Shown one piece after another: positions 9,104-58,080 of a stretch of 64,000 nucleotides of DNA. The stretch is from a virus. Both the position numbers and the translations under genes were made by a program. The stretch spans positions 86,602 to 150,601 of IMG/VR virus record IMGVR_UViG_3300009964_000001, one strand, 5' to 3'. The number at the start of each line of letters is the position of its first letter. Position 1 is the stretch's first letter. The notes beneath the pieces are model-generated. The model was not told where the DNA came from. It ran no database searches and worked only from the letters and a program-made list of their open reading frames with translations.

Positions 9104-9367
9104 ATGACTAAGAAAGAATTCATCACAGCTCTCGCAGAGCAGACTGGTGCAACTAAGACGCAGGTAGAAGCCATCATCGGTGCTTATCACAAGACTATCA
9201 TCGAAAGTCTTAAGAAGGATGAGCCAGTGACCTTCGTTGGCTTCGGTACGTACTCATCCAGAGTTCGCCCAGAGCGTGAAGCCTTCAAGCCTGGTACTAA
9301 GGAAAAGATGACAGTACCTGCAAAGAAGGTCGGTAAGTTCAAGATGTCAAAGTCTGTAGAACTTTAG
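9104..9367 (+). CDS. hup: HU/IHF-family histone-like DNA-binding protein
   Basis: MTKKEFITALAEQTGATKTQVEAIIGAY...FGTYSSRVRPEREAFKPGT matches HU fold signature; 87 aa. Confidence 0.85.
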   Translation: MTKKEFITALAEQTGATKTQVEAIIGAYHKTIIESLKKDEPVTFVGFGTYSSRVRPEREAFKPGTKEKMTVPAKKVGKFKMSKSVEL

Positions 9368-9568: not shown

Positions 9569-10990
9569 ATGAAAGCCAAGAAGCATCAAGTAGGCATGTT
9601 CGATCACATGTTCGAAAAGGGAAAGATCACGTTCTTGTTGGATGGTTATTCCGCAGGTTCATCTGGCAAAGGCAAGTGTGAATCTCTCATCGTAAAGAAC
9701 ACATCGTTCGGCACTGGGGATAAGCGTCTTGCAGTCTGTACCACGAACTCTGCAAATGCATCGCATTGGGTTTATGATGACGGCAAGAAGATGATGTTCG
9801 AAGTACTGCCTTCATCGGCTTATCTTCACGAAAAGCTCGAGTTCGTCGCTATCGGTCATGGTGCATCATTCTCCGTAGAAAGACTCTTCGAGGAAATCAA
9901 GATGAGTGGTCTTCCTCTCGATAAGCTCTTCATCCATCCCAAGGCAGGGATCATCACCAAGATCGATGAAGACTACGAAAAGGGTCTTTGTGATATCGAC
10001 GGCAACTATGGTTCATCCGATCACGATGGTACAATCGCAGGCGGATCTACTTGCTCTGGATCTGGTGCAGTTCGAGCAAAGAAGGTCGTAAGAAACAAGA
10101 CAGTGACTTATGCTTATCAAGTCCCAGAACTCAAGCAGTTCATCTGTGATGTCGAGAAGCGTCTTATGACGTTTATGCTTAACGGAGGATCAGTTCTTCT
10201 ACAGATTGGTCAAGGTTTCCCACTTTCGTATGGTCTCGGCTATAACAAGCAGAACTCAACAAGTCGAAACGTGACGATCAGTGCAGCTTTGGATGACATG
10301 AATCTTCCTCCATTTTTCGCAGGTGATGTTATCTTGAATGGTAGAACTTATCCGATCAAGATCAACAACAAGAAGTATCGTCTTCTCGGTGGGAAGCCAG
10401 TTGTCCGTCTTCACAAGAACTCGGAATCGACACTGAAGTATTATGCTCATAAGCATCTGTTCGACTTCATCGAAGGAGATGATCACGTTTCTATCGTCAC
10501 ACGTAAGGAATTCATTAACTTCTACGAAATGCGTGAGTTCCCCTACCTTGAATACGAGGTTATCGAATCGTTCAGTGGTACTGGCTATTCTCCAATCTGG
10601 AACGAAGAAAGTCACCAGCGAGAAATCACGTGGGAAGATGTCGAAAAGAACTATGGGAAGACGATTCCAGATGATGTAAAGTGCACGTCACTTACCAAGC
10701 TCCCTCGAAGAGTCTTTGAGTTTGATAAGAGCCTTCTGCACGACGGCATTCTCTACAATCTTTCTCCAAATGGCAAAACTCACATTGTCATCAACTTCGT
10801 CAACTGGGTAGATGGTGAAATGGACGGAGAACGTGAGAAGATCACGGAGAAGATAGAAGATTGGCTCTCCAAGAACATGTTCGCAGAAATCGACACTATC
10901 AACAAGCTGGTGGGTGATGAGAAGAAGGTAATACTTTCTGTACTCGGGACTGGTCGTGAATCCGACGACTTTGTCGCTGTAGAAGAGTAA
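9569..10990 (+). CDS. Adenylosuccinate synthetase (PurA)-family enzyme with variant P-loop; PurZ-like candidate
   Basis: Blocks align to PurA: LLDGYSAGSSGKGK (PurA GDEGKGK), NSANASHW (GGHNAGHT), GGSTCSGSGAVRAKKV (GTTGRGIGPAYEDKVAR), QIGQG (EGAQG); 473 aa. Confidence 0.8.
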   Translation: MKAKKHQVGMFDHMFEKGKITFLLDGYSAGSSGKGKCESLIVKNTSFGTGDKRLAVCTTNSANASHWVYDDGKKMMFEVLPSSAYLHEKLEFVAIGHGASFSVERLFEEIKMSGLPLDKLFIHPKAGIITKIDEDYEKGLCDIDGNYGSSDHDGTIAGGSTCSGSGAVRAKKVVRNKTVTYAYQVPELKQFICDVEKRLMTFMLNGGSVLLQIGQGFPLSYGLGYNKQNSTSRNVTISAALDDMNLPPFFAGDVILNGRTYPIKINNKKYRLLGGKPVVRLHKNSESTLKYYAHKHLFDFIEGDDHVSIVTRKEFINFYEMREFPYLEYEVIESFSGTGYSPIWNEESHQREITWEDVEKNYGKTIPDDVKCTSLTKLPRRVFEFDKSLLHDGILYNLSPNGKTHIVINFVNWVDGEMDGEREKITEKIEDWLSKNMFAEIDTINKLVGDEKKVILSVLGTGRESDDFVAVEE

Positions 10991-19193: not shown

Positions 19194-20690
19194 ATGATCA
19201 ATTGTAAACAGATCAGAGACAAGATGTCGGTGTCTTATTTCGACGAAAACGGAAACATTGCGATATCTGACATAACAATAGACGATCGTGAAAAGTACGT
19301 ATGGACAAAGACAACCGAAGATGACAAGTTTCGAGACAAGACTTACGTATCTCAAGACGGATTCCCTGTGAAAAAAGAACGTAAGTCCTATCTCGACAAA
19401 TATCGCAAGATCGAGTTCTTGCTGTCTCTACCAGAACGTTTACAAGCGAAGATTTTCTCAAACAATCAGCCACGTAAGTTCTTCTGGGATATTGAAACAG
19501 AAGTTTTTGATGACTTCCCCGATGCTGGGAATCCTGTTGGGAGAATCTTCACGCATCAGTATTGTGATGAGTTCGGCAATGGTACTGTCATGGGCATCAA
19601 GCCACTTTCACAGACACAAATCGACTCTATCGAACAGAAGATCAACGACTATCTCTCACAGATCACCGATAAGACGCTTCATCAGAGATATAAGTTCCGT
19701 TACATTTACTACCCCGATGAGTTCACGATGAACAAAGACTTCGTCGAGAATCATGCAACAAAGATGCCGTGTATTTTCGGATGGAACGTGCTGAAGTTCG
19801 ATACAAGATACCTCGTCAACAGGTGTAAAAAGACGAACATTGATCCTACAATTCTCTCACCAAAGAGAATGCTTTACTCGACGATTGCGAAAGATAAGTT
19901 CGACCATTCATCGAAAATTGAAATCGAACTTCCTCTTCATCGACCAATCATCGACTACATGCAAATCTTCGAATTCTTTGATAGATCGATTAAACAGAAG
20001 TCATCAATGTCGCTCGATTTCATCGCATCAGAAATCCTTGGTGTCAAGAAGATCCATCATTCCGAAACTCTGATGGAACTCTATGAGAAGGACTATGAAC
20101 GTTACGTGCTTTATGGTATCATCGATACGTTCCTCGTGGCATTGATCGACAAGAAGTGTAGAACATTTGAATCAATGAGCGTTCTTGCAAATCTCCTACG
20201 TGTCGAAGTTGCACAGTCTATGTTCGTTAGTGTCGGGATCGAAACACTCTTGTGTGACTACTATTACAAGCATTACAACAAGGTGTTTGTAAAGGACTAT
20301 GACAAGCAGATTCCCGAAGGTGAAACTTATAGCGCAGGATTCGTTCTACAACCAGGTATTGGTGTTTATGATGGTATCGTCATCTATGACTACGAATCAT
20401 TGTTCCCTTCAATCATGCAGATGTTGAACGTCGGTGAAGATGTTTACCTCGGTCATACCGATGATCAAGGGAAAACCTACGTGGACAAACTCGGAGAAGA
20501 ACACGAACTTGACGAGACGATGTGCTATTCATCCAGTGGTGCAGTTTACTCGAAAAACAGAGATTCCGCAATTCGAACGATGATTTCGAACATGTTCAAT
20601 AAACGAGTAGAAGCAAAACACAAGGAAGCAGAAATCAAAGCAGATATTAATCACTTAAAGCAGATATTAAAAGATAACTTCGGACATTAA
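19194..20690 (+). CDS. Family-B DNA polymerase, N-terminal part only (3'-5' exonuclease domain + motif A)
   Basis: Exo I FWDIETE, Exo II GWNVLKFDTRYL, Exo III YVLYGIIDT, motif A DYESLFPSIM; ORF stops about 90 aa after motif A, motifs B/C absent. Confidence 0.8.
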   Translation: MINCKQIRDKMSVSYFDENGNIAISDITIDDREKYVWTKTTEDDKFRDKTYVSQDGFPVKKERKSYLDKYRKIEFLLSLPERLQAKIFSNNQPRKFFWDIETEVFDDFPDAGNPVGRIFTHQYCDEFGNGTVMGIKPLSQTQIDSIEQKINDYLSQITDKTLHQRYKFRYIYYPDEFTMNKDFVENHATKMPCIFGWNVLKFDTRYLVNRCKKTNIDPTILSPKRMLYSTIAKDKFDHSSKIEIELPLHRPIIDYMQIFEFFDRSIKQKSSMSLDFIASEILGVKKIHHSETLMELYEKDYERYVLYGIIDTFLVALIDKKCRTFESMSVLANLLRVEVAQSMFVSVGIETLLCDYYYKHYNKVFVKDYDKQIPEGETYSAGFVLQPGIGVYDGIVIYDYESLFPSIMQMLNVGEDVYLGHTDDQGKTYVDKLGEEHELDETMCYSSSGAVYSKNRDSAIRTMISNMFNKRVEAKHKEAEIKADINHLKQILKDNFGH

Positions 20691-20693
20691 AAG

Positions 20694-20951
20694 ATGGAAA
20701 TAAAACTGTTAGGAAAGAAGATACTCATAAAGCTCAATGAGGTCGAAAAGCAGGTCGATGGCTTCGAACTGGTACAACACAACGATGTAGACCAAACCGC
20801 AGGTGTTGTCTCGAATGTTGGGATAGGTGTTACAGAAGTCAAAGTCGGTGACAAAGTGATCGTCAACAAGTTCTCTGGTATTGAGGTTCTTATCGAAGGT
20901 GATAAGTTCAAGGTAGTAGAGGAACACGAAATATTAATCATTGTAAGATAG
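20694..20951 (+). CDS. groES: Co-chaperonin GroES (Cpn10)
   Basis: KILIKLNEVEKQ...VKVGDKVIVNKFSGIEV...EHEILIIV aligns along full GroES. Confidence 0.8.
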   Translation: MEIKLLGKKILIKLNEVEKQVDGFELVQHNDVDQTAGVVSNVGIGVTEVKVGDKVIVNKFSGIEVLIEGDKFKVVEEHEILIIVR

Positions 20952-20956
20952 ACTGA

Positions 20957-22546
20957 ATGAACGCTGTAGACATTAAAAGCGGATCAGAAGCCAGAGAACT
21001 GATCCTTATTGGTGCAAAGAAGATCCATGACGCTGTAGGATCAACACTGGGACCTGGTGGTCGAAATGTCATCATCAAGCACAACACGTACGATGTACCA
21101 CAGGTCACTAAAGATGGTGTGACTGTAGCAAGAAAGATGAAGCTACAGAACTATTGGCACAACATTGGCTGTCAGCTCGTAAAGCAGGCATCAATGCGAA
21201 CAGCAGTTGATGCAGGTGATGGAACAACTTCCTCTGTCGTCATGGCGTACACGATGATGAAGCTGATCGATGAACTTCTTGAGGAAAATCCTGATATCGA
21301 TGTTCACCGACTTCGTCATGAGATGGAGAAGATGAAAGATGTCCTCATTGAACGACTTCGGGAAATCTCCACACCAATCGTTGATATTCAGCAGGTGTTC
21401 GATATTGCAAAGATCTCTACGAACAACGATGAGAAACTTGCAGGGTTACTTTCCGAGATTTATGGGAAGATTGGTAAAGATGGGATAATCGTTCTCGAAC
21501 AATCACAACTTTCGAATATCACCTATTCGATCGAATCTGGATTCCGATTTGACGGAGGATGGCAATCTCACTATTTCGTAAAGGACAAGTCAAAGATGTC
21601 GTTCGAATCTGACGATTGTGCAATCTTCATCACAAATCACAAGATCCAAGACGGCAAGACAATGCTGAATGCGCTTTCAAGGATCTACGGCACAGGTGTC
21701 CGTGATCTACTGATCATTGCGGAAAATATCGAAGGTGAAGCGTTATCGACTTTGATCGCCAATAATCAGAGTGGAAAGATGAACATTTGTCTTGTCAATC
21801 CTCCGTATTATGGACAGAAGCGTGAAGAATACCTCACTGACCTCTCCATTTCGCTTGGTATGAAGCCACTTATGGTGGGAGATCAGTCCGTGTCACCTCT
21901 CTCGTTTACAGAAGAGTACTTCTCTTGCGGTCGAAGCGTCTTTGTGGATAAAAGCACCACGACGATCAGAAATGACAAGGAAAGTGTATCGTCTGCAGTC
22001 GAAGAGCATATTTCGAATCTGAAGTCTCTTATGGATTCTGAAGATGAAGACAAGGAATGGATCGAAAAGAGAATAGCGACCTTAAGATCATCAGTTGCCG
22101 TCATAAAAGTTGGTGGTAATTCTGAATCTGAGGTTTATGAACACAAGGACAGACTTGAGGATGCGATTTGTGCTATAAGATCGGCATACAAGGACGGCAT
22201 AGTTGCAGGTTGTGGCATTACGTACATACGACTAATCTCTGCGCTTGATCCTTCTCTTGACACGTTCCATATCTTGAAATCTGGACTTGAATCCGTGTTC
22301 AAGAAGATAATGGACAACTCGTGCATATCAGAAGAAGAAAGATCATCGATTCTCTACTTTGTTGCCGAAGATGAAGGATACGGTTATGATGCCAAGAAGC
22401 GTGAGAAGTCGTACAATTCGATCAGAGATGGTATCATTGACTCGGCACGTGTTATAAAAAACTGTATCGAGAATTCGATATCTGTCGCTATCATGTTCAT
22501 GATCTCTGACAACATAGTCATGGAAATCGATGAATCGATAATCTAA
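20957..22546 (+). CDS. groEL: Chaperonin GroEL (Cpn60)-like
   Basis: AVGSTLGPGGRNVII, DAGDGTTSSVVMA (GroEL AGDGTTTATVLA), 529 aa. Confidence 0.85.
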   Translation: MNAVDIKSGSEARELILIGAKKIHDAVGSTLGPGGRNVIIKHNTYDVPQVTKDGVTVARKMKLQNYWHNIGCQLVKQASMRTAVDAGDGTTSSVVMAYTMMKLIDELLEENPDIDVHRLRHEMEKMKDVLIERLREISTPIVDIQQVFDIAKISTNNDEKLAGLLSEIYGKIGKDGIIVLEQSQLSNITYSIESGFRFDGGWQSHYFVKDKSKMSFESDDCAIFITNHKIQDGKTMLNALSRIYGTGVRDLLIIAENIEGEALSTLIANNQSGKMNICLVNPPYYGQKREEYLTDLSISLGMKPLMVGDQSVSPLSFTEEYFSCGRSVFVDKSTTTIRNDKESVSSAVEEHISNLKSLMDSEDEDKEWIEKRIATLRSSVAVIKVGGNSESEVYEHKDRLEDAICAIRSAYKDGIVAGCGITYIRLISALDPSLDTFHILKSGLESVFKKIMDNSCISEEERSSILYFVAEDEGYGYDAKKREKSYNSIRDGIIDSARVIKNCIENSISVAIMFMISDNIVMEIDESII

Positions 22547-25142: not shown

Positions 25143-25289
25143 AGAAGACAAGGAAGAAGACAAGGAACGTTTTGATGATTAGAGATTGTGGAGGGTGGTC
25201 GGATGAGAAAATCTGGCCACTCTCCACGACATATAAAAACGACGAAAGAAACACATAAAAATCAACAACAAATAACAATAACCAACAAA

Positions 25290-25412
25290 ATGATCCGTAA
25301 GATCTTAAATACGTTAGTAGTGATCGGTGCATCACTTTTTCTCATCTTGATCATGTCCATGATCGTTTTCATCGTATCGTGTATTATGGTCATCATGAGT
25401 TTCTTCATGTAA
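25290..25412 (+). CDS. Small hydrophobic peptide (MIRKILNTLVVIGASLFLILIMSMIVFIVSCIMVIMSFFM)
   Basis: ATG within track ORF 25188..25412. Confidence 0.3.
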   Translation: MIRKILNTLVVIGASLFLILIMSMIVFIVSCIMVIMSFFM

Positions 25413-25435
25413 GTACTATAAAAGCACGCTGGAAA

Positions 25436-25648
25436 ATGGACGATTTAAAGCAAAACATAGTAATAGCGATAATCTCAATAATAATAACCGCAATATTCGG
25501 ACTTTTGGTTATCTCGATATCTGATTTCATAGATTCGAGGTCATCAAAAGACAATCTGATAAAGTACAACTATCACATATCAGAACCAGAACCTGCAATA
25601 GTTATTGGTGAAGGCGATGATGATAGTAGCAATTCGTGGTCGTTCTGA
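25436..25648 (+). CDS. Small membrane protein
   Basis: ATG within track ORF 25379..25648; TM segment IVIAIISIIITAIFGLLVISI. Confidence 0.35.
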   Translation: MDDLKQNIVIAIISIIITAIFGLLVISISDFIDSRSSKDNLIKYNYHISEPEPAIVIGEGDDDSSNSWSF

Positions 25649-25701
25649 AAATATGCCGTCTTTTAAATAACGAAACCTTTATACCTCGGTGTTGAAAGAC
25701 G

Positions 25702-25932
25702 ATGAAGATGACGATCAAAGATTGTATAATAGACGTTTGTAAGTCTATAGGAAAAGTCTCAATTTCTGATATCTTGAAGTATGTTCGGAACAGTGGATGG
25801 TTTGAGAAGGATCTTTCCATTGACATTGATGATGACGACAAGGTTAGTATCGGAAAAATACAAAAGTTCATAAGAGACGGCATAGACACCATAACAGAAT
25901 CAGAGGATGAAGAAGTAAACTCGGAGGAATAA
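25702..25932 (+). CDS. Small acidic protein; late-promoter-like motif upstream
   Basis: ORF + TTTTAAATAACGAAA at about 25661. Confidence 0.4.
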   Translation: MKMTIKDCIIDVCKSIGKVSISDILKYVRNSGWFEKDLSIDIDDDDKVSIGKIQKFIRDGIDTITESEDEEVNSEE

Positions 25933-25934: not shown

Positions 25935-26345
25935 ATGACGATCAAATCATACATCAATCAACTCGAAGACAGAGACATCATCCGAGCATATGTCGCCTGT
26001 GTAATTCATCAGTACGAGGATAAAGTCGGAACTAAAGATCCCGATGCGTTCGTGAAACTGGAATACGAAGATGTTTCCAAACATATCGATGAAATAATCA
26101 AGAGCGCAAGAGAGACGTTCATGTGTTACGCTACCGATGAGGAAGAAATGATAGAGTTCGTCAAGAACGACGGATATATCGAACTTCTCCGAGAAGGAGG
26201 TGACTATGAAGATGTCCTGCAAATGTACGGAGGTGATGAAAACGCCATGTTTGTCGCCTATTTCTATGACCTTATAGAAGATGGTGTGTTTGAACACGAC
26301 GGTTACTATTTCTACATGACGGCAAATGACTACGAACGTCAGTAA
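25935..26345 (+). CDS. Paralog array member 1 (about 130-aa acidic protein, C-terminal GYYF)
   Basis: Shares N-terminal Y-I-x-x-L/E-D and C-terminal DGYYF with members 2-10. Confidence 0.6.
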   Translation: MTIKSYINQLEDRDIIRAYVACVIHQYEDKVGTKDPDAFVKLEYEDVSKHIDEIIKSARETFMCYATDEEEMIEFVKNDGYIELLREGGDYEDVLQMYGGDENAMFVAYFYDLIEDGVFEHDGYYFYMTANDYERQ

Positions 26346-26384
26346 TAATCGTCACAAATAAAAAAATCATAATAGGAAAAGAAA

Positions 26385-26780
26385 ATGACTGCAGAAGAAT
26401 ATATCAGATCGTTATCAGACAAAGATCTCATCTTTGCGTATATCGAATGTATTATACAAGAAGCACTCACAGGTGTGGAATTTGAAGATTTTGACATTTT
26501 CATGTTTCACAAAGAATATGAAGATGTCAAAGATGATATCGATACACTTGTAGAACAGGCTCGTGATCGTGCGCTCACCGATTATCGAATCACATCTGAA
26601 GGAGATATTCTTAGATACTACGATGAAACCTGTCATGGTCATGAAAACGATCCAGATGTCCAAGAAGGAAGAAAGAGATTCGAAGATGATCCATTAGGAA
26701 TGCTCCACCAATTACTCGATACGATGAGTGATAACTGGGCTGAATACAATGGTTATTATTTCGTAGTTGGTGCTTGGTAG
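26385..26780 (+). CDS. Paralog array member 2
   Basis: MTAEEYIRSLSDKDLIFAYIECI...EQARDRA...NGYYF. Confidence 0.6.
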   Translation: MTAEEYIRSLSDKDLIFAYIECIIQEALTGVEFEDFDIFMFHKEYEDVKDDIDTLVEQARDRALTDYRITSEGDILRYYDETCHGHENDPDVQEGRKRFEDDPLGMLHQLLDTMSDNWAEYNGYYFVVGAW

Positions 26781-26813
26781 TCTCACGTTTGTACATAAAG
26801 AAATCGTAAAACA

Positions 26814-27203
26814 ATGACTGTAAGAGAATATATCAACACATTTGAAGACGCAGGTCTCATTCTTGCGCATATCGAACTTGTCAAAGATGGAAAGTATGGG
26901 AAAGAAACCGTGGATTTTGATATCGACAACGATGAAATCGAAGATGTTAAAGCGAAGGTCGATAAGCTCATATACAAATCATTCGATAGGTGCGTGTACC
27001 CAGATCCAATAAGAACTGAGGAAGACATCTATGAGTATCTCAAGACTTGTGTTTGTTATGGTACTGATGATGATCCAACATACTTAGAATATAAGGCGAT
27101 ATGGGAAAAAGATCCATGGACTAAGTTCTTCCAATCGGTTGACGAACAGTGCCCTTGGTTTGAACAAGATGGCTACTACTTCATGGACACTTATAACATG
27201 TAA
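26814..27203 (+). CDS. Paralog array member 3
   Basis: MTVREYINTFEDAGLILAHIELV...DPWTKF...DGYYF. Confidence 0.6.
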   Translation: MTVREYINTFEDAGLILAHIELVKDGKYGKETVDFDIDNDEIEDVKAKVDKLIYKSFDRCVYPDPIRTEEDIYEYLKTCVCYGTDDDPTYLEYKAIWEKDPWTKFFQSVDEQCPWFEQDGYYFMDTYNM

Positions 27204-27218
27204 AAGAGAAAAAGAAAC

Positions 27219-27620
27219 ATGACTGCAGAACAATACATCAAATCGTTACCTGATTCGGAGCTTATTCTCTCTTATATTGCGTTGGCAGTATCTGAAGACA
27301 TCGAAGGCACGGAAGGTATGGATGCCGACATCAACAACGATGAGTACGAAGATGTTAAAGATCAAGTCGATACACTTATCGAACAAGCTCGTGATCGTGC
27401 GATCACCAATTATCCCATAAGATCTGAAGAAGATACTCTCAAATACTTCGAAGACACCTATGGTGAATTTATTGAGAATAATGAGGATCTCCAAGAATAT
27501 GGGAAGAAATGGAAGGAAAATCCATGGAAGGAATTCCGAGATTCTCTTAATGAAGTGAAAGCTTATTACAAAAACGGTAAGTGGTACGAACATAATGACT
27601 ATTACTTCATAGTCTGGTAA
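27219..27620 (+). CDS. Paralog array member 4
   Basis: MTAEQYIKSLPDSELILSYIALA...EQARDRAITNYPIRSEEDTLKYFED...NPWKEF. Confidence 0.6.
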   Translation: MTAEQYIKSLPDSELILSYIALAVSEDIEGTEGMDADINNDEYEDVKDQVDTLIEQARDRAITNYPIRSEEDTLKYFEDTYGEFIENNEDLQEYGKKWKENPWKEFRDSLNEVKAYYKNGKWYEHNDYYFIVW

Positions 27621-27666
27621 CACAAGTTTGTATATAAAGAAATATTAATAAGAAGAAAGAAGAAAT

Positions 27667-28008
27667 ATGATGCTAATAGAATATATCAGGACGCTACCTA
27701 ATGGTGAACTCATCGAAGCGTATATGGGATCTCTCACAATTGGACAAATGAGAGATGAGGAAATTATTGATATGTACGAACAACATGCTCGTGAACGTCT
27801 AATCTTTGATTATCCAGTGCATAAGGGGGATATTATGAGAGTCTTTGACGAAATGTTTCCTAATTGGGAAAACGATCCAGATCTCGTAGAAGAAAGAAAG
27901 CAATGGGAAGAATATCCATGGTATAAGCTACGACAAGCACTTGATGCAGCGTATGGTAATAATTGGCATGAATACCAAAGTTATTATTTCGTTGATGATG
28001 TTCGATAG
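27667..28008 (+). CDS. Paralog array member 5
   Basis: IEYIRTLPNGELIEAYMGS...YPWYKL...SYYF. Confidence 0.55.
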   Translation: MMLIEYIRTLPNGELIEAYMGSLTIGQMRDEEIIDMYEQHARERLIFDYPVHKGDIMRVFDEMFPNWENDPDLVEERKQWEEYPWYKLRQALDAAYGNNWHEYQSYYFVDDVR

Positions 28009-28051
28009 CACAGTTCACTCACGAAAACACTAATAGAAAATAACAAGTCAA

Positions 28052-28096
28052 ATGTGGCGAAAGATTTGAATCTTTCGCCACATTTGTATATAAAAG
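28052..28096 (+). promoter_or_regulatory. Hairpin (atgtggcgaaagat/tctttcgccacat) fused to TTGTATATAAAAG promoter-like box upstream of array member 6
   Basis: Near-identical module recurs at 28992-29037 with compensatory stem changes. Confidence 0.45.
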
Positions 28097-28125
28097 AAAA
28101 AAACGATCTTAATAGAAAAGATAAA

Positions 28126-28518
28126 ATGACTGTAGAAGAATATATCAAGACGCTACCCGACGCAGAACTCATCTTTGCGTATATTGCATGCGCTGGAACA
28201 GAAGATATCGACGTAGGTGAAGACCTTCGTGAACTCGATATAGAGAACGATGAATATGAAGACTTTAGTTATGAAACCGAAGAACTCGTAGAACAAGCAC
28301 GTGACCGTGCCATAGCTGAATACCCTATCAGTTCTAAGGAAGATGCTCTGAGATACTTCGATGAGTGCTATGGTGAAGACCTCGAGTATGATGAAGATCT
28401 CGTAGAATGGAGAAAGAAATGGGAAGAAGATCCATGGAGTCAGTTCTATCACGTACTTGACGAAATGGGTGATTGGTATGAAGATAACGGTTATCACTTC
28501 AGAGCTGAAGAGTGGTAA
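28126..28518 (+). CDS. Paralog array member 6 (track ORF 28054..28518; probable start at MTVEEYIKTLPD)
   Basis: MTVEEYIKTLPDAELIFAYIACA...EQARDRAIAEYPISSKEDALRYFDE...DPWSQF. Confidence 0.6.
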   Translation: MTVEEYIKTLPDAELIFAYIACAGTEDIDVGEDLRELDIENDEYEDFSYETEELVEQARDRAIAEYPISSKEDALRYFDECYGEDLEYDEDLVEWRKKWEEDPWSQFYHVLDEMGDWYEDNGYHFRAEEW

Positions 28519-28536
28519 TAAGAAGAAAAGAGAAGT

Positions 28537-28980
28537 ATGATTGTAAAAGAGTATATCGAAAAGTCAGAGTACGCAGGTACAGTTTTTGCATATATCGAAT
28601 GTGTTACAAAAGAAGGCATCGATGATGAGCATTTACGTGGTCTCGATATAGAGAACGACGAATATGAAGATAATAAAAAACAAGTCGATGAACTCATAGA
28701 ACAGGCAACCTATTGTTCTATCGCTGATTATCCAATCCTCACCGAAAAAGATACTTGGAGGTACTTTGAGGATCGCTATTGGAGATACTATGGTGATGAC
28801 GGAGAGTACATAAAGCTCATAGAACAGAAGCCTAAATGGATGGAAGACCCATGGGGCAAGTTCCATCGATTGGTTGAGAGAACTATAGATGCTTTCAACA
28901 AGAAAACTAATGGTAACGATGCTTTGTATGAAAGCGGAGGTTACTACTTTATGATCGATGCTGGAAGAGTACGATCATAA
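28537..28980 (+). CDS. Paralog array member 7
   Basis: MIVKEYIEKSEYAGTVFAYIECV...DPWGKF...GGYYF. Confidence 0.55.
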   Translation: MIVKEYIEKSEYAGTVFAYIECVTKEGIDDEHLRGLDIENDEYEDNKKQVDELIEQATYCSIADYPILTEKDTWRYFEDRYWRYYGDDGEYIKLIEQKPKWMEDPWGKFHRLVERTIDAFNKKTNGNDALYESGGYYFMIDAGRVRS

Positions 28981-28991
28981 TAGAAAATCGA

Positions 28992-29037
28992 GATGTGGCG
29001 AAAGGTTCAAACCTTTCGCCACATCTGTATATAAAAG
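28992..29037 (+). promoter_or_regulatory. Second copy of hairpin + TGTATATAAAAG module upstream of array member 8
   Basis: gatgtggcgaaaggtt-caa-acctttcgccacatc then tgtatataaaag. Confidence 0.45.
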
Positions 29038-29062
29038 AAAAAAACAAAAACCTCACGAAAAT

Positions 29063-29398
29063 ATGACCATTAAAGAATACTTAGAAGGTCTCTTCGAATC
29101 GAAGATGTACTTCAAGTTTTACGAGTTGTTCGGTGATAGATTTGGGTTCTCTCTTGAAGACGATTATTCTCAGTTTGAGAAGAAAGTGAACTATTTCGTC
29201 GAAACTGCAGATATCGAGTTCTTCTGTCTTGAAGAAAACCTCGAAGATACTGTTGACAGATTCTTCATCATCCCAATGTTGAAGAACATGAGCGACATCA
29301 GCTATATTCGAAAGTTCTTCGATTATGAAGCTTATAAGCAGATGCTCATTGATCGTGGCTATACAATACGAGATAACTACGTGTTCTCACCATTCTAA
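29063..29398 (+). CDS. Paralog array member 8 (divergent; track ORF 28958..29398, probable start at MTIKEYLEGL)
   Basis: MTIKEYLEGLFESKMYFKFYELF; lacks GYYF. Confidence 0.45.
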   Translation: MTIKEYLEGLFESKMYFKFYELFGDRFGFSLEDDYSQFEKKVNYFVETADIEFFCLEENLEDTVDRFFIIPMLKNMSDISYIRKFFDYEAYKQMLIDRGYTIRDNYVFSPF

Positions 29399-29412
29399 AA
29401 GAAACCACGAAA

Positions 29413-29814
29413 ATGACTATTAAAGACTACATCAGAGAGAAAAGTGACATCGGTGATGCCGTGATCGTCTATGGTGAAAGTGGCTACTATAGTGGTGATG
29501 TCGATCTTGATTTCGAATGGGAAGAAAAGGACGAGGACGATTTCGACAATGAAGAAGACTATGACGATTACAATTCAGAAATCGAAGTTCAGAAGGAACT
29601 CGCTGATGCGCTCATAGAGAAAGCTCAAGAAGCATATCAATGCGATAGTGATGGGTTTGAAGATATGGTGAATGAAGTCTACCTCAATCCCTTCATCGAA
29701 GGTGCGGATAACCCAGAGTTCTTCTATGTTTATTTCGATTATGATAGTTTCAGATATGACCTCCTTAAAGGCGATCTCTTCTATCAAGATGGTTATTACT
29801 TCCTCACATATTAG
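29413..29814 (+). CDS. Paralog array member 9 (subfamily with member 10)
   Basis: MTIKDYIREK...ESGYYSGDVDLD...ELADALIEKAQEAYQCDSDGFEDMVNEVY...DGYYFLTY. Confidence 0.6.
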   Translation: MTIKDYIREKSDIGDAVIVYGESGYYSGDVDLDFEWEEKDEDDFDNEEDYDDYNSEIEVQKELADALIEKAQEAYQCDSDGFEDMVNEVYLNPFIEGADNPEFFYVYFDYDSFRYDLLKGDLFYQDGYYFLTY

Positions 29815-29848
29815 TTAAAGAAGCTGGTAAACGTAGGAATCGAACATC

Positions 29849-29891
29849 GGGGGGGGGGTCACGTGATTATCTTTTATCACGTGACCCCCCC
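29849..29891 (+). repeat. G10...C7 perfect palindromic hairpin (GGGGGGGGGGTCACGTGAT / ATCACGTGACCCCCCC) between array members 9 and 10
   Basis: Seen in sequence; contains CACGTG core and homopolymer G10 tract. Confidence 0.7.
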
Positions 29892-29934
29892 TCGTTCATT
29901 TAAATAACAAAATCTAAAAAACAAAGATAAGAAA

Positions 29935-30336
29935 ATGACTATTAGAGATTATATCAAGGACAACTGTCGCATCGACTATGAAGCAGTAATCGCTTATTAC
30001 GAAAGTGGTTACTACGACACCGAAATCGATCTTGACTTAAACGATGAAAAGGACGCAGGAGAATTCGAAAACCCAGAAGACTATGGTATGTACTTTGAGG
30101 AAGTAGACATACAGAAGGAACTTGCAGACGAACTCATAGAGAAGGCAGAAGAAAACTACCAGTGTGATGATGACACTTTTGAAGACATGGTAAACGAACT
30201 CTACATCGATCCATGTATTGAAGGTGCAGCTGATCCAGACACGATTTATCGTTACTTCGACTATGATAGATTCAGAAATGACCTTCTTATGGACAACTAC
30301 TTCTACAGTAACGGTTATTACTTCCTCGCTTATTAA
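29935..30336 (+). CDS. Paralog array member 10
   Basis: MTIRDYIKDN...ESGYYDTEIDLD...ELADELIEKAEENYQCDDDTFEDMVNELY...NGYYFLAY. Confidence 0.6.
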   Translation: MTIRDYIKDNCRIDYEAVIAYYESGYYDTEIDLDLNDEKDAGEFENPEDYGMYFEEVDIQKELADELIEKAEENYQCDDDTFEDMVNELYIDPCIEGAADPDTIYRYFDYDRFRNDLLMDNYFYSNGYYFLAY

Positions 30337-30376: not shown

Positions 30377-30410
30377 GAGAGGGCAAGGAAACTATTTCCT
30401 TGCCCTCTCG
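30377..30410 (+). terminator. Bidirectional terminator hairpin between paralog array and convergent minus gene
   Basis: gagagggcaaggaaa-ctat-ttccttgccctctc. Confidence 0.6.
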
Positions 30411-32852: not shown

Positions 32853-33224
32853 ATGGAAAAATCGATCAAATTAACAAGGAACAACTTTCTTGTAGAAGAA
32901 TTGTGTAAAGATGCGCTCATCGATTTCGATTCTCCGAGAAATGTTGGTGTTGTCGTATGTGGTAACGAGAAACATGAAGATGTGAAAGTCGGGGACAAGG
33001 TCTTCTTCGGTGAAACCAATGGTTACATAATAGAACTCAACGGCATTCGTTATTGTCTTCTATCATATCCAGAAATAATCGGTGTTATCGAGGGGGAATG
33101 TGGTCGGGAAGACATAGTCGTAGGAAGATATCACGACCTTGATGATTACATAGACAAACTCACACAGAAGAATCTTCTCGGTGACAATCCGATCAACATA
33201 CACGAAGGTATGTTTTATAAATAA
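32853..33224 (+). CDS. Second GroES/Cpn10-like (gp31-like co-chaperonin fold) protein
   Basis: NVGVVVCGNEK...VKVGDKVFFGETNGYIIELNGIRYCLLSYPEIIGVIE resembles GroES C-terminal half. Confidence 0.4.
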   Translation: MEKSIKLTRNNFLVEELCKDALIDFDSPRNVGVVVCGNEKHEDVKVGDKVFFGETNGYIIELNGIRYCLLSYPEIIGVIEGECGREDIVVGRYHDLDDYIDKLTQKNLLGDNPINIHEGMFYK

Positions 33225-43093: not shown

Positions 43094-45049
43094 ATGAGTA
43101 ACAATAAAAATGTTGTAATCTTTGAGAACCATAGCGTTCCGATGAATCGTGTAAATGAATCGTTGGAATCCACGAATGGTGTCAAGGATTACGTCTTTGA
43201 GGGTGTCTGTGCTACCTTTAATGGGAAAAATGAAAACGCAAGATTCTACGACAGAGATGAGTATCTTCGTCATGTCGAATACCTACAGAAGGAAATAGAA
43301 CAGAACTCGCTTGCAGGATCTCTTGATCATCCCGATGGTGATGAAGAGGACGAAACGAAGGACATCTTCACGCCAAAAATGAAAGACCTGTCCCACCTCA
43401 TCACAAAGCTTTGGTATAAGCCAGAGACTGATGAAGTCTGGATCAGAATCAAGCTTCTTGACACTGAATGGGGTAAGGATGCTAAGGCGTGTGTTGATGC
43501 TGGTATGCCACTGTTCATTAGCTCAAGATCATCTGGTTTCATTGACAAAGATGGACGAGTATGGTTGGCACAAATTCACACATACGATATCGTCTACAGA
43601 CCTGGGTTTGGGAACGCTAAACTTTCTCCAGTACTCGAATCATTCGATGGAAAGAACAGTTACCTTAGCGTTTACTCAAGACAGAAGGCGGTAGATGGTA
43701 CTGAATCTGAAAATATTAATATGGAAAATAAGACTTATAAGCTAAGCGAACTCACAAAGGAAGACGTACTCTCGCTTCTGTTCAACCCTAATGTGAAGGG
43801 AGCTTATGATTTCACGAGTGATGTGATCGAAAAACTCGACGAATTCTTCGATTATCCAAAGTTCATCGATTACTACAACGAAAACTATCCTATGCTTTCC
43901 GAAGCAATCGTGAACTACTTCATGGATTGTGGCAGATACGTTTACGATGACGGTACGTCTTGTGAAAATATTGGTGACTTCATCAAGATCGAAGTTGGTC
44001 GTGCATGTGACGACTATTTCGCAGAGATCAAGCAGGTCTTCAAGAACAACTTCGGAGATTTTGTTGAAGAAGGCGACGGTAAGGCAGATATCGATCGTTA
44101 TGCTCATATCATCGAAGAATGTAAGAAGTCGAAGAGAAATGTCCTGCGCAAGATCCAGTCGGTGAACGAATGTGAATCTGTGAAATATGTCGTTTCCGAC
44201 TTCTGCAATGATCCTTCTTGTGACATTGAAGATAAGTTCGAAGTTGCCAGAGAGTTCTTCGTCAAGTATCCCGAGTATGGCGTAATTGTCGATGATTGTT
44301 CTATGGAAGATGTTGTTCTCATCGCTTGTGATATGAAGAACGACTCTATCTATGACGAGATCGAGAACTCTGAAGTCAGAACGAAGAACGAAATCGCAGA
44401 TGTCAAGAATATCGTCAACAAGCTTTACGCTCAGATCAACCAAGATAGAGCAGAGTTCAAGAAATCGATAAATTCTCTCGTCGGAAATGTAAACCGAGTT
44501 CTCGAAGAATACAAGGCAGATATTGAAAGCGCATTCTGTACGATTGACGAAATCCGTGATGATGTTTACAACATTATCTCATGGATCGAATCGAACAACA
44601 CTGCACTTGACAAGTCCGCAGAAGTTGCACAGATCTCCAAGAGGTTGGATGGTGTCGCCCAAACCTTTAGTCAGAAGATTGACGAAATCGAATCATCACA
44701 GGAAGCAATGGTGTCTCACGTCGACAATATCGAAAGTGACGTTTCCTTTATTGCAGAATCTGCAAACAGAACGAAGCAGATGGTGAAGGAATCCGCAACC
44801 GCTCGAAAGATTGAAGATGCAACAAGCATTGGTTCAAGAATCGACAACGTCATCGAGACGATCAAGGCACAAGCACCCGCTTTCCGTGTGTTTGAATCTG
44901 ACGGCTCTCTCTACGTTCCTAACAGATTTGCAAAGCAGTACAACTCTCTTGATGAGGATCAGAAGACTTACGTGAAATCTGTTTTCGAAACAAAGAATCC
45001 GAGATCTAAATCGGAATTCTTCTCCATTTGGGAATCTCTCGGTCTTTAA
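43094..45049 (+). CDS. Prohead protease / scaffold (core) protein fusion upstream of major capsid gene
   Basis: Position before MCP; N-domain with candidate His/Ser (LDHP, SSRSSG); C-terminal half long coiled coil; late-promoter motif upstream. Confidence 0.45.
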   Translation: MSNNKNVVIFENHSVPMNRVNESLESTNGVKDYVFEGVCATFNGKNENARFYDRDEYLRHVEYLQKEIEQNSLAGSLDHPDGDEEDETKDIFTPKMKDLSHLITKLWYKPETDEVWIRIKLLDTEWGKDAKACVDAGMPLFISSRSSGFIDKDGRVWLAQIHTYDIVYRPGFGNAKLSPVLESFDGKNSYLSVYSRQKAVDGTESENINMENKTYKLSELTKEDVLSLLFNPNVKGAYDFTSDVIEKLDEFFDYPKFIDYYNENYPMLSEAIVNYFMDCGRYVYDDGTSCENIGDFIKIEVGRACDDYFAEIKQVFKNNFGDFVEEGDGKADIDRYAHIIEECKKSKRNVLRKIQSVNECESVKYVVSDFCNDPSCDIEDKFEVAREFFVKYPEYGVIVDDCSMEDVVLIACDMKNDSIYDEIENSEVRTKNEIADVKNIVNKLYAQINQDRAEFKKSINSLVGNVNRVLEEYKADIESAFCTIDEIRDDVYNIISWIESNNTALDKSAEVAQISKRLDGVAQTFSQKIDEIESSQEAMVSHVDNIESDVSFIAESANRTKQMVKESATARKIEDATSIGSRIDNVIETIKAQAPAFRVFESDGSLYVPNRFAKQYNSLDEDQKTYVKSVFETKNPRSKSEFFSIWESLGL

Positions 45050-56629: not shown

Positions 56630-56951
56630 CGTATACGGAAAATCTTCGATTTATCTAAACGAAAGGCGACAACCCGATTAAAGAGTTATCACCTTTTCGC
56701 TAACAACAAAAAAGTGGTGTCATATGTGATGTTGTCACTCATTGATTCGAACAAAGACTAACAGAGCCAAGGTCTGTTGTGCTACCATTACACCAAATGA
56801 CAAGGCGAGCACCTTTTTCTGCATAAGCGAGATTAAGGTAGTGCTCATGAGTAGTGCCCCCATGAAGAGATCGCACCACAACCTCCCGATCACCGCTTTT
56901 GTAGCAAGCCCATCGAGTGTCCCTCTGCTATCTACATTCAAGGGACTGGTG

Positions 56952-57026
56952 GGTGATGGATGGGACTTGAACCCACAACCAATAGAACCACAACCCATTG
57001 CTCTGACCAATTTGAGCTACCATCAC
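56952..57026 (-). tRNA. tRNA-His (anticodon GTG), no encoded G-1
   Basis: Cloverleaf folded by hand from reverse complement: acceptor GTGATGG/CCATCAC, D GCTC/GAGC, anticodon stem ATGGG/TCTAT (2 GU), loop TTGTGGT, T-arm GTGGG-TTCAAGT-CCCAT, discriminator C. Confidence 0.6.
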
Positions 57027-57124
57027 AGACGTAGTGAGAGGTTTCGCTCCTCTGAGTATCTTCATCAAGAAGCACTACGTTTAATAAAAATGTGGGGGGG
57101 AAAGGTGGCGAGTTGTCCATACTC

Positions 57125-57200
57125 TTCTCAGTCGGGTAGGATTCGAACCTACATCATTTAAGAACCACCTTATAGATTCCGATCATTCTACAGATTTTTT
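57125..57200 (-). pseudogene. tRNA-like fragment (intact T-arm GTAGG-TTCGAAT-CCTAC, no complete cloverleaf found)
   Basis: GGATTCGAACC on plus strand; acceptor/D/anticodon arms could not be closed. Confidence 0.25.
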
Positions 57201-57213
57201 AACACGTAGACTG

Positions 57214-57435
57214 TACGATAATGAAGATTCTTGCTGAATATCTACAAATCAGAAACTATGATTGATAACCGTTTAGATGTCTACAGACAGTGCCGACAGG
57301 AGCACCAAGCCATTAACCGTAAAATTTTCAATGCTATAAATCTGTAATCTAAACGGATGTTTCGTCGAAATCTTTACTACAGACGGTCTATGAGCCAATT
57401 ATGAAGATTCTGTTTGCTGTATGTCTATAAATCTC
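57214..57435. repeat. Two copies of ~40-nt direct repeat (ATGAAGATTCT[T/G]..GCTG.ATATCTA(C/T)AAATC) plus TCTACAGA motifs in tRNA-cluster spacer
   Basis: 57214-57250 and 57393-57435. Confidence 0.5.
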
Positions 57436-57552
57436 GACATTGAGAATTCTTTAAAAGAACGCTTTTGTTTTGATGACTTCCCAGTGGACTACGTAATTTT
57501 TAGGAGCAATTGCGATATCTTCTTGCTGTGAATCCAAAACATCATCATTTTG

Positions 57553-57637
57553 AGGAGAGAGTGGGATTCGAACCCACGGATCGTTTCCGACCTTCAGTTT
57601 TCAAGACTGATGCGATAGACCGCTCTGCCATCTCTCC
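57553..57637 (-). tRNA. tRNA-Ser (anticodon TGA), type II with long variable arm
   Basis: Acceptor GGAGAGA/TCTCTCC, anticodon stem TCAGT/ACTGA loop CTTGAAA, variable arm GGTCGGAAACGATCC, T-arm GTGGG-TTCGAAT-CCCAC. Confidence 0.8.
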
Positions 57638-57996: not shown

Positions 57997-58080
57997 TAGA
58001 GGTGGTAGGACTCGAACCTACGAAGCCTTTTAAGACGAGTGATCTACAGTCACTTGCAATTGCCACTATGCGACACCTCT
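57997..58080 (-). tRNA. tRNA-Tyr (anticodon GTA), type II
   Basis: Acceptor AGAGGTG/CACCTCT, D GCA-TAGTGGCAAT-TGC, anticodon AGTGA-CTGTAGA-TCACT, long variable arm, T-arm GTAGG-TTCGAGT-CCTAC. Confidence 0.8.

What the first reader, a model, noticed from the sequence alone, without database searches (positions are those of the whole stretch)
25935..30336. Array of ten tandem paralogous ~130-aa acidic genes with their own promoters
Ten consecutive same-strand genes (array members 1-10) encode diverged copies of one small protein. They share an N-terminal M-T-x-x-E-Y-I-x-x-L-x-D-x-E-L-I-x-A-Y-I helix, a central EQARDRA..YPI.SEED.LxYFE block, a DPWxxF block and a C-terminal (N/D)GYYF. Members 9 and 10 form a subfamily (ESGYY...ELADxLIEKAxExYQCD...DGYYF). 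Most members are preceded by a conserved TTTGTA(T/C)ATAAAG box. Two are preceded by a hairpin-plus-box module whose stem shows compensatory substitutions between copies. I recognise no known family. Diversified tandem arrays of small genes like this in phages are typically anti-defence or host-takeover factors, so this is a strong candidate for an undescribed system.
Basis: seen in the sequence. Interest (0 to 1): 0.85.

Follow-up and report, generated by a model that had tools for sequence, protein, structure and literature searches.

The report
Tandem array of ArdA-like anti-restriction genes
A large T4-like phage carries ten diverged side-by-side copies of a small, very acidic protein that is a distant, shortened relative of ArdA, a DNA-mimicking protein that blocks bacterial restriction enzymes. 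The array is therefore most likely a diversified anti-defence arsenal built from a known part, not an unknown system.

Summary
The array is real. Ten consecutive + strand genes (25935-30336) encode homologous proteins of 111-147 aa, pI 4.05-4.6, net charge -9 to -33.

The claim of "no known family" does not hold. The family is a remote, N-terminally shortened relative of the ArdA DNA-mimic anti-restriction family:
- A family-only profile searched against 1.84 billion proteins found, outside its own clade, only short proteins that match the C-terminal end of Pfam ArdA.
- An array member in the same genomic slot of a more distant phage scores 26.8 bits on Pfam ArdA (cut-off 27).
- High-confidence AF2 models (pLDDT about 92) hit phage "antirestriction" proteins in BFVD and ArdA 2W82 in the PDB.
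- ArdA's essential Y-[I/F]-D-Y and "VF" motifs are conserved in m8-m10.

No window member passes Pfam ArdA. ArdA domain 1 is absent.

Related ~150-kb phages carry 3-11 copies in the same slot, in the same order. Losses occur by recombination between paralogs or at the promoter-like box. Orthologues are under purifying selection (dN/dS 0.05-0.32), except m7.

The box precedes only 4 of 10 genes. The hairpins covary and resemble T4-type PeSL cassettes.

Best reading: a set of specialised ArdA-derived DNA mimics. This is a new variant of a known kind. Targets and expression timing are untested.

The parts
25662..25671 (+). TTTAAATAAC motif, a candidate late-type promoter, heading the unit 'up'-m1-m2
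   Evidence: One of 4 exact copies in the window. The related TAAATAA[C/A] motif also precedes the baseplate-wedge gene (31239) and the capsid-like gene (45109). It is conserved upstream of this ORF in L001-L006. Promoter function is inferred.
25702..25932 (+). Conserved 76-aa acidic ORF ('up') directly abutting m1. It shares only the N-terminal MTIKDxI with the family.
   Evidence: Orthologues are present in all six relatives. hhalign to the family covers 13-22 N-terminal columns only. Net charge -8. No PHROG hit.
25935..26345 (+). m1, 136 aa. This paralogue bridges the two subfamilies.
   Evidence: dN/dS 0.10-0.17.
26385..26780 (+). m2, 131 aa
   Evidence: dN/dS 0.20-0.22.
26788..26800 (+). 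Box TTTGTACATAAAG before m3
   Evidence: In L002 the same box is the junction of a deletion that removes m3-m7.
26814..27203 (+). m3, 129 aa
27219..27620 (+). m4, 133 aa (AF2 model, pLDDT 92.8)
27627..27639 (+). Box TTTGTATATAAAG before m5
27667..28008 (+). m5, 113 aa (lacks the acidic loop)
28049..28095 (+). Hairpin (28049-28086) overlapping box TTTGTATATAAAA (28083-28095) before m6. PeSL-like terminator/promoter cassette.
28126..28518 (+). m6, 130 aa (net charge -33)
28537..28980 (+). m7, 147 aa. The only member with dN/dS near 1 (0.68-0.99).
28991..29036 (+). Hairpin (28991-29026) plus box CTGTATATAAAA before m8
29063..29398 (+). m8, 111 aa
29413..29814 (+). m9, 133 aa
29850..29908 (+). Poly-G/poly-C hairpin (29850-29893, -39.5 kcal/mol) followed by TTTAAATAAC (29899-29908) before m10
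   Evidence: Conserved in 5 of 6 relatives.
29935..30336 (+). m10, 133 aa. The most ArdA-like member (AF2 model, pLDDT 91.9).
30377..30409 (.). Bidirectional terminator-like hairpin between m10 and the convergent gp2-like gene

Best explanation
The ten genes encode a diversified set of ArdA-derived DNA-mimic proteins.

Each protein keeps the C-terminal ArdA domain 3, a winged-helix-like fold of three strands and three helices that forms the ArdA dimer interface. Each also keeps a preceding helical region and a dense acidic surface. The dispensable ArdA domain 1 is missing.

Inferred mechanism:
1. The proteins dimerise through the domain-3 motif.
2. They present DNA-like arrays of carboxylates.
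3. They occupy the DNA-binding groove of host DNA-targeting defence enzymes. Type I restriction-modification is the primary candidate because it is ArdA's known target. This blocks attack on the phage genome.

The paralogues are kept as distinct genes because each is tuned to a different target variant. The array grows and shrinks by recombination between paralogues and at the box/hairpin cassettes.

Shown: homology among members, remote ArdA relationship, acidity, purifying selection, copy-number variation, hairpin covariation.

Inferred: dimerisation, DNA mimicry, the target, and paralogue specialisation.
For: 1. A family-only profile (A2) was searched exhaustively against 1.84e9 representatives and gave 9 hits. 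The three not belonging to the family (P0059, P0060, P0062; E 2.6e-4 to 9.9e-4) all match the C-terminal end of Pfam ArdA PF07275. P0060 scores 56.1 bits, P0062 47 bits and P0059 25 bits, against a cut-off of 27.
2. m10's best two PHROG hits are 'anti-restriction protein' families. Both align in register with their C-terminal ends (E 0.026 and 0.037).
3. In a more distant phage (L008) the same genomic slot holds six acidic small genes. At least four of them match the family profile. One of those hits Pfam ArdA at E 8.8e-6 with 26.8 bits (residues 50-122 to model positions 81-154 of 155), and anti-restriction phrog_2059 at E 0.0011.
4. hhalign of family-only profiles against an ArdA alignment gives 86.7-92.9% probability (E 4e-6 to 4e-7) over 43-64 columns. 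m10 residues 65-128 align to Orf18 residues 95-158.
6. In the alignment, ArdA's essential residues Y137/I138 fall on Y107/F108, F161 of the VF motif falls on the invariant F130, and interface acids D109, D111, D115, D139 and D146 fall on D79, D80, D84, D109 and D116.
7. Net charge is -9 to -33 and pI 4.05-4.6, against -32 and 4.05 for ArdA.
8. ArdA domain 1 is dispensable and domains 2+3 bind the methyltransferase core (PMC2731889). C-terminal-only sArdC proteins are active and show target preferences (PMC12548430).
9. Orthologue dN/dS is 0.05-0.32 for nine of ten members. Gene order is conserved while copy number varies from 3 to 11.
Against: - No window member matches Pfam ArdA or any NCBIfam model at E<=1.
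- Against an ArdA alignment made only of Orf18-like sequences, hhalign probability falls to 9-54%.
- The m1-m7 subfamily is linked to ArdA only through m8-m10. It replaces the YFDY interface motif with W..DPW..F.
- Dimerisation, DNA mimicry and any target are untested. The host is unidentified.
- The promoter-like motif heading the array also precedes capsid and baseplate genes. If it is a late promoter, the proteins would be made too late to protect incoming DNA, unless they are packaged.
- ArdA-like proteins can have other targets, for example gp119, which inhibits deoxyinosine repair (PMC13091555 abstract).
Confidence: 0.6

Rival explanations
1. The proteins are ArdA-derived DNA mimics, but their targets are not restriction systems. 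They would inhibit other host DNA-binding proteins, such as nucleoid proteins, repair nucleases, RNA polymerase or recombination enzymes, as host-takeover factors.
For: - The ArdA-like gp119 of a Fletchervirus inhibits deoxyinosine repair, and Ocr also inhibits BREX (abstracts).
- The homology to ArdA is remote and below Pfam's threshold, so function may have drifted.
- The array sits among replication genes and next to a gp2-like DNA-end protector.
Against: - The only experimentally characterised relatives that the profiles reach are anti-restriction proteins.
- Copy-number variation between close relatives fits an arms race with variable defences better than inhibition of conserved housekeeping proteins.
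Confidence: 0.2
2. The proteins are made late, packaged into the capsid and injected with the DNA, like T4 internal proteins Ip1-3. The conserved N-terminal MTxxEYI would act as a capsid-targeting signal. This is a variant in timing and delivery that is compatible with DNA mimicry.
For: - TAAATAAC-type motifs head the array and m10, and also precede baseplate-wedge and capsid-like genes, but none of the recognised replication genes.
- The motif resembles the T4 late promoter TATAAATA (my own knowledge).
- The N-terminal motif is the best conserved segment. It is shared with the otherwise unrelated neighbouring 76-aa ORF.
- A gp21-like prohead protease is encoded at 43094-45049.
- T4 Ip proteins are a precedent for several injected anti-restriction proteins with a shared N-terminal signal (PMC12373910).
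Against: - There is no consistent (L/I)xE protease site after the motif (reading).
- The N-terminal helix is part of the confidently folded body (pLDDT 96-97).
- The same N-terminal pattern occurs in an HU-like protein at 9104, so it may just be a common helix start.
- The class of the promoter is unproven.
Confidence: 0.12
3. The resemblance to ArdA is convergent or due to chance, driven by acidic and aromatic composition. The family would then have an unrelated role, for example as assembly chaperones, scaffolds or regulators.
For: - An unrelated SPT6 chain scores E 5e-4 in the PDB sequence search.
Against: - The order of secondary-structure elements and ArdA's essential residues coincide.
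- SPT6 is not supported by any fold search.
Confidence: 0.08

Closest known systems
ArdA (Tn916 Orf18, PDB 2W82; Pfam PF07275)
   Same: - Acidic protein with pI about 4.
- C-terminal domain of three strands and three helices ending in a beta-strand.
- Y-[I/F]-D-Y interface motif and 'VF' motif aligned in register for m8-m10.
- Carried by a mobile genetic element.
   Different: - 111-147 aa instead of about 165.
- No domain 1.
- A variable acidic loop is inserted in the N-terminal helical part.
- Below the Pfam threshold.
- m1-m7 have a different interface motif.
- Present as 3-11 diverged tandem copies instead of one gene.
sArdC, small ArdA proteins (Utkina et al. 2025, PMC12548430)
   Same: - Shortened ArdA derivatives that retain the C-terminal dimerisation region.
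- Shown there to be active against Type I R-M, with target preferences.
- The outside hits of the family profile (P0059, P0060, P0062; 73-78 aa) look like this class.
   Different: - sArdC is about one-third of ArdA's length. It is chromosomal, in Actinomycetes and Lactococcus, and single-copy.
- The proteins here carry an extra N-terminal region of about 60-70 aa, are phage-borne and are arrayed.
T7 Ocr (gp0.3)
   Same: Small, highly acidic phage protein proposed to act by DNA mimicry against Type I R-M (and BREX).
   Different: - No sequence or fold relationship was detected.
- Ocr is a single early gene.
T4-type internal proteins Ip1-3 and their polymorphic loci
   Same: Several small anti-restriction proteins per phage, with a shared N-terminal segment and variation between relatives. 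Each is specific for a variant of one defence family (PMC12373910).
   Different: - The Ip bodies are described there as apparently non-homologous.
- They carry a proven capsid-targeting signal and target Type IV enzymes.
- Here the bodies are homologous, and packaging is unproven.
PeSL (promoter-early stem-loop) cassettes of T4-type phages (PMC2839356, PMC4122927)
   Same: - A stem-loop immediately followed by a promoter-like box, lying between small ORFs of a variable region.
- A deletion junction lies exactly at the box (L002).
   Different: - The box is not a sigma-70 early promoter.
- Its class and activity are unknown.
- The cassettes are absent from some relatives.

Membership tests
ArdA (Pfam PF07275) | Match to the Pfam ArdA model at or above the gathering score (27 bits) | tested here: not met
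   None of the ten members hits ArdA at E<=1. The best related result is a syntenic array member in L008, at 26.8 bits and E 8.8e-6.
ArdA (Pfam PF07275) | C-terminal domain 3 (three strands plus three helices) carrying the anti-restriction/dimer motif (Orf18 residues 126-140, with Y137 and I138) and the VF motif (I160, F161) | tested here: met
   - Met for m8-m10. The AF2 model has E75-78, H79-94, H101-107, H110-119, E122-125 and E128-131. hhalign maps Y107/F108/D109/Y110 onto Y137/I138/D139/Y140, and F130 onto F161.
- For m1-m7 only the Y-Y-F end is kept. The interface motif is W..DPW..F, and the link to ArdA is transitive.
ArdA (Pfam PF07275) | N-terminal domain 1 (Orf18 residues 3-61) | tested here: not met
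   - The proteins are 111-147 aa long.
- Alignments to ArdA profiles begin at profile positions 81-87 or later.
- Domain 1 is dispensable in ArdA.
ArdA (Pfam PF07275) | Central four-helix domain 2 | tested here: inconclusive
   The models show three helices before the first strand, interrupted by an acidic loop. hhalign reaches only the last domain-2 helix, at Orf18 residue 95 onward.
ArdA (Pfam PF07275) | Strongly negative surface, pI about 4 | tested here: met
   pI 4.05-4.59 and net charge -9 to -33. Orf18 has pI 4.05 and net charge -32.
ArdA (Pfam PF07275) | Homodimer that mimics bent B-DNA and inhibits Type I R-M | not testable with these tools
   No multimer prediction or assay is available.
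sArdC (small ArdA, C-terminal type) | Consists of the ArdA C-terminal region only, about one-third of ArdA's length | tested here: not met
   The members have an additional conserved N-terminal region of 60-70 aa.
Ocr (T7 gp0.3) | Sequence or fold similarity to Ocr | tested here: not met
   No Ocr appears among the Pfam or PHROG hits or the listed fold matches.
PeSL cassettes | A stem-loop directly followed by a promoter, between ORFs of a variable region, marking indel junctions | tested here: inconclusive
   - The hairpins covary.
- The box abuts the stem.
- In L002 the m3-m7 deletion joins the m2 3' flank to the m8 leader at the box.
- Promoter activity is not testable here, and the box does not match the sigma-70 consensus.
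T4 internal (Ip) proteins | N-terminal capsid-targeting sequence ending in a prohead-protease site | tested here: inconclusive
   The N-terminal motif is conserved and shared with the neighbouring ORF. However, there is no consistent (L/I)xE site, and the helix is part of the folded model.

The most novel reading that the evidence does not exclude
The array is a combinatorial DNA-mimic arsenal.
- Each paralogue would be tuned to a different DNA-binding immune enzyme of the host population. Candidates are different Type I R-M families or specificities, BREX-like methyltransferases, or other nucleases.
- Paralogues with compatible domain-3 interfaces might also form heterodimers.
- Part of the set might be made from late promoters and delivered in the virion with the DNA.

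This would be a natural experiment in how DNA mimics acquire target specificity.
Probability: 0.2. Interest if true: 0.8.

Novelty: new variant of a known kind. Interest (0 to 1): 0.55.

Why it matters
DNA mimics such as ArdA and Ocr are usually seen as single, broad-spectrum inhibitors. Whether and how they achieve target specificity is an open question.

Here there is a set of at least 12 paralogue types. Most are individually maintained by purifying selection, while gene content varies between near-identical phages. That argues each copy does something different. It also provides a ready-made panel for testing the specificity of shortened ArdA scaffolds against Type I R-M and other defences.

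The finding also gives a functional lead for a block of genes that public records label 'hypothetical protein', in a widespread clade of ~150-kb phages from metagenomes (one relative's record is labelled an oral metagenome).

Tried and rejected
NEGATIVE SEARCHES
- Megablast of the region against 50,697 phage genomes: no match.
- Pfam and NCBIfam on all ten members: no meaningful hits.
- PDB sequence searches with profiles A1, A2 and A4. The top hit was the SPT6 tandem SH2 chain 2xp1 (E 5e-4 to 0.012) or a mimivirus glycosyltransferase (E 0.16). ArdA reached only E 0.9. I rejected SPT6 as a chance match because no fold search supports it.
- hhalign and BLASTP against the single Orf18 sequence: weak (E 0.011 and 0.008).
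- The AFDB50 fold library was unavailable.
- Two genome-contig scans, with the family profile and with the phage GroEL, intended to find a host or prophage: nothing.
- A third homologue search, using a profile that included distant members, found only the same phage clade.
- tblastn of the most ArdA-like L008 member against phages and plasmids: no match.
- Rfam: nothing in the array.

IDEAS CONSIDERED AND NOT SUPPORTED
- The box is a sigma-70 promoter. Not supported: sigma-70-like sites are no more frequent than in shuffled sequence (15 found against 20.2 expected).
- The upstream 76-aa ORF is an eleventh family member. Not supported: only the first 13-22 columns align.
- The N-terminal motif is a capsid-targeting signal used elsewhere in the genome. 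Not supported: the only other match is an HU-like protein.


Full report
OBSERVATION

The window carries ten consecutive + strand ORFs between 25935 and 30336. They encode proteins of 111-147 aa. For m6 and m8 the biologically sensible starts are the internal ATGs at 28126 and 29063, because the longer ORFs read through the upstream hairpins.

The ten align over their whole length, with M1, Y6 and the C-terminal Y-x-F invariant. Homology does not depend on a self-built profile:
- In pairwise BLASTP, m2-m7 match each other at E 2e-4 to 2e-45.
- m9-m10 match at 7e-41 to 7e-49, and m8-m10 at 4e-7.
- m1 links both groups (m1-m2 6e-11, m1-m9 9e-6, m1-m10 2e-4).
- hhalign between the two subfamily profiles gives 96.7% probability over 119 columns.

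All ten proteins are very acidic (pI 4.05-4.59, net charge -9 to -33). No other family member lies elsewhere in the window.

The claim about regulatory elements is only partly right. The box TGTAYATAAA occurs four times in 64 kb, against 0.29 expected. All four copies are in the array, before m3, m5, m6 and m8. The other genes follow their neighbour after 14-39 nt.

The two hairpin-plus-box modules are real. Across ten copies from this window and three relatives, 6 of 18 stem pairs change on both sides while 97.7% of cells remain paired. No shuffle or register shift approaches this.

A third hairpin, with poly-G and poly-C arms, precedes m10. A bidirectional terminator-like hairpin follows m10.

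CONTEXT AND DISTRIBUTION

The array sits between replication genes and virion genes. Upstream are a B-family DNA polymerase, Cpn10/GroEL-like genes, a gp32-like SSB and a primase-like protein. Downstream are a convergent T4 gp2-like DNA-end protector and a gp6-like baseplate wedge gene. The window also encodes UvsX-like, Dda-like, gp41-like and gp21-like proteins. The phage is therefore a distant T4-type myovirus.

It has no close relative among 50,697 deposited phage genomes. By DNA polymerase its nearest cultured relatives are a Flavobacterium phage (32%) and the Prevotella Lak phages (28%). The A-rich leaders lack a Shine-Dalgarno sequence, which is also compatible with a Bacteroidota host. 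The host is not established.

The protein family is confined to this clade. It gave 54 hits among 5.8e9 clusters, all from metagenomic contigs, many of 145-151 kb. All lack a Pfam domain, and where a name exists it is 'hypothetical protein'. One relative's record is labelled an oral metagenome.

WHAT THE PROTEINS ARE

The weak PHROG hits of m10 gave the first lead. Its two best matches are 'anti-restriction protein' families, aligned to their C-terminal ends. I followed this up in six ways.

1. Exhaustive profile search. A family-only profile (A2: m8, m9, m10 and their orthologues) was run with HMMER against 1.84e9 representative proteins and returned nine hits. Six are family members or fragments. 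The other three (E 2.6e-4 to 9.9e-4 for the whole library) are 73-78-aa proteins that match the last ~55 positions of Pfam ArdA. Two are well above the gathering score (56.1 and 47 bits against 27) and one is just below it (25 bits).

2. A syntenic member in a distant phage. A more distant phage (L008) carries six small acidic genes in the same slot after the primase-like gene. At least four match the family profile. One of those hits Pfam ArdA directly (E 8.8e-6, 26.8 bits, residues 50-122 to model positions 81-154 of 155) and anti-restriction phrog_2059 (E 0.0011).

3. Profile-profile comparison. Family-only profiles against an ArdA alignment give 86.7-92.9% probability (E 4e-6 to 4e-7) when that alignment includes the three Pfam-positive short proteins. 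The figure drops to 9-54% when it holds only close Orf18 homologues. In every case the register is the same: m10 residues 65-128 align to Orf18 residues 95-158. I checked that the Orf18 sequence I used is identical to PDB 2W82 chain A.

4. Structure. AF2 models are confident: m10 has pLDDT 91.9 and m4 has 92.8.
   - Against BFVD, the m10 model's best hit is a family member that UniProt calls 'Antirestriction protein [Ackermannviridae sp.]' (52% identity, E 4.7e-14).
   - Nine further matches, with probability up to 0.99, are phage antirestriction/ArdA proteins.

5. Secondary structure and key residues. The second half of the m10 model runs strand, three helices, two strands, ending at the C-terminus. 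This equals the published description of ArdA domain 3. In the alignment, ArdA's essential Y137/I138 fall on Y107/F108. F161 of the VF motif falls on the invariant F130. Interface acids D109, D111, D115, D139 and D146 fall on D79, D80, D84, D109 and D116.

6. tblastn. The only hit of m10 in the phage genome collection, although not significant (E 0.8), is an 'ArdA-like antirestriction protein' of Rhodococcus phage Takoda.

None of these lines is decisive alone. Together they converge on one family and one register.

The limits are clear:
- No window member passes Pfam ArdA.
- ArdA domain 1 has no counterpart.
- The correspondence of the N-terminal helices to ArdA domain 2 is only plausible.
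- The m1-m7 subfamily is linked through m8-m10. It has replaced the YFDY interface motif with W..DPW..F.

WHY A SHORTENED ArdA CAN STILL WORK

[quoted passage not shown] Domains 2 and 3 bind the methyltransferase core (PMC2731889). Natural C-terminal-only 'sArdC' proteins protect lambda from Type I R-M and show different preferences for EcoKI and EcoR124II (PMC12548430). The proteins here are longer than sArdC and shorter than ArdA.

EVOLUTION OF THE ARRAY

Six IMG/VR relatives and three further contigs carry the array in the same slot, with gene order conserved but 3 to 11 copies.
- At least two additional paralogue types exist elsewhere. One is a 124-126-aa type, 53-58% identical to m10. The other is a second m5-like type.
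- Losses arise by recombination between paralogues. In L001 one gene has an m2 N-terminal half (94% identity) and an m6 C-terminal half (95%), and m3-m5 are missing. Database proteins P0001 and P0048 are similar chimeras.
- Losses also arise at the box. In L002 the m2 3' flank is joined to the m8 leader exactly at TTGTATATAAAA.
- This behaviour, together with the stem-loop-plus-box anatomy, parallels the PeSL cassettes of T4-type hyperplastic regions (PMC2839356, PMC4122927).
- The boxes are not universal. L001 and L006 lack them.

Orthologue comparisons with three relatives give dN/dS of 0.05-0.32 for nine members, at dS of 0.17-2.3. The genes are therefore expressed and individually constrained. 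Only m7 approaches neutrality or positive selection (0.68-0.99).

EXPRESSION

The features conserved in nearly all relatives are two. One is a TTTAAATAAC motif upstream of the 76-aa ORF that abuts m1. The other is a hairpin plus the same motif upstream of m10.

Within the window, TAAATAA[C/A] also precedes the baseplate-wedge gene, the capsid-like gene and the gene upstream of the prohead protease. It precedes none of the recognised replication genes. It resembles the T4 late promoter TATAAATA (my own knowledge).

If it is a late promoter, either other promoters give early expression or the proteins are packaged and injected, as T4 Ip1-3 are (PMC12373910). I found no consistent protease site, and the N-terminal helix is part of the fold. 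I therefore hold this as a minority possibility.

MECHANISM AND VERDICT

Most likely (0.6): the array encodes ArdA-derived DNA mimics that dimerise through domain 3 and block the DNA-binding sites of host DNA-targeting defences. Type I R-M is the first candidate. The paralogues would be specialised for different target variants.

Rivals:
- DNA mimics aimed at non-defence host proteins (0.2).
- A packaged, injected delivery mode (0.12, not exclusive of the main reading).
- A chance or convergent resemblance to ArdA (0.08).

This is not a categorically new system. It is a new variant of a known kind: a shortened ArdA scaffold amplified into a variable tandem family. I found no such array described in two targeted literature searches.

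Noticed in passing
window 20694-20951, 20957-22546 and 32853-33224: The phage encodes a GroEL-like chaperonin (PHROG E 1e-114). An 85-aa Cpn10/GroES-like ORF lies just upstream of it. A second, weak Cpn10-like gene follows the baseplate-wedge gene.
   Followed up: partly
window 25664, 29901, 31215, 33218, 42347, 45070, 52407 (+) and 52370 (-): A TAAATAA[C/A](G/A)AA motif lies 25-45 nt upstream of starts, including those of the baseplate-wedge and capsid-like genes. It is absent from the replication gene block at 1-25 kb. It is a candidate late promoter of this phage clade.
   Followed up: partly
window 29850-29893; L001-L006 around 9880-9990: The hairpin before m10 has a poly-G arm. Its length differs between relatives, from about 9 to 21 G. 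This could be real length variation or homopolymer assembly error.
   Followed up: no
window 28537-28980 (m7): m7 is the only array member with dN/dS near 1 (0.68-0.99 against three relatives). Its C-terminal half is only 57-77% identical to its orthologues. It may be under positive or relaxed selection.
   Followed up: partly
L001 7786-8181; L002 8729-9076; proteins P0001 and P0048: Chimeric paralogues occur: an m2 N-terminal half joined to an m6 or m5 C-terminal half, and an m1 N-terminal part joined to an m3 C-terminal end. L002 also holds an m2 copy that lacks its N-terminus. These show ongoing unequal recombination inside the array.
   Followed up: yes
window 25702-25932: A conserved 76-aa acidic ORF directly abuts m1 in every relative. 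It shares only the MTIKDxI start with the family and has no database match.
   Followed up: partly
window 9104-9367: An 87-aa ORF begins MTKKEFITALAEQTGATKTQVEAIIGAYHK. This looks like an HU/IHF-type DNA-binding protein (judged from memory of HU sequences, not tested).
   Followed up: no
window 19194-20690: The DNA polymerase ORF (498 aa) aligns only to positions 12-496 of an 856-position DNA polymerase PHROG profile. The polymerase may be split or its other half encoded elsewhere.
   Followed up: no
window 56731-62026 (- strand): A cluster of six tRNA genes: Gln, His, Ser, Tyr, Met and Lys.
   Followed up: no
window 25188-25648: Two small ORFs (74 and 89 aa) with hydrophobic, membrane-like stretches lie between the primase-like gene and the array.
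   Followed up: no
BFVD entries A0A8S5VU31, A0A8S5VTT1 and A0A8S5VU77: The first two structural matches, and probably the third (111 aa, Foldseek probability only 0.25), appear to be array paralogues from one 'Ackermannviridae sp.' metagenomic genome. UniProt gives the three entries three unrelated automatic names: 'Antirestriction protein', 'Matrix protein' and 'RNA polymerase Rpb5-like protein'. One JGI copy of m1 is named a GH114 glycosidase.
   Followed up: partly
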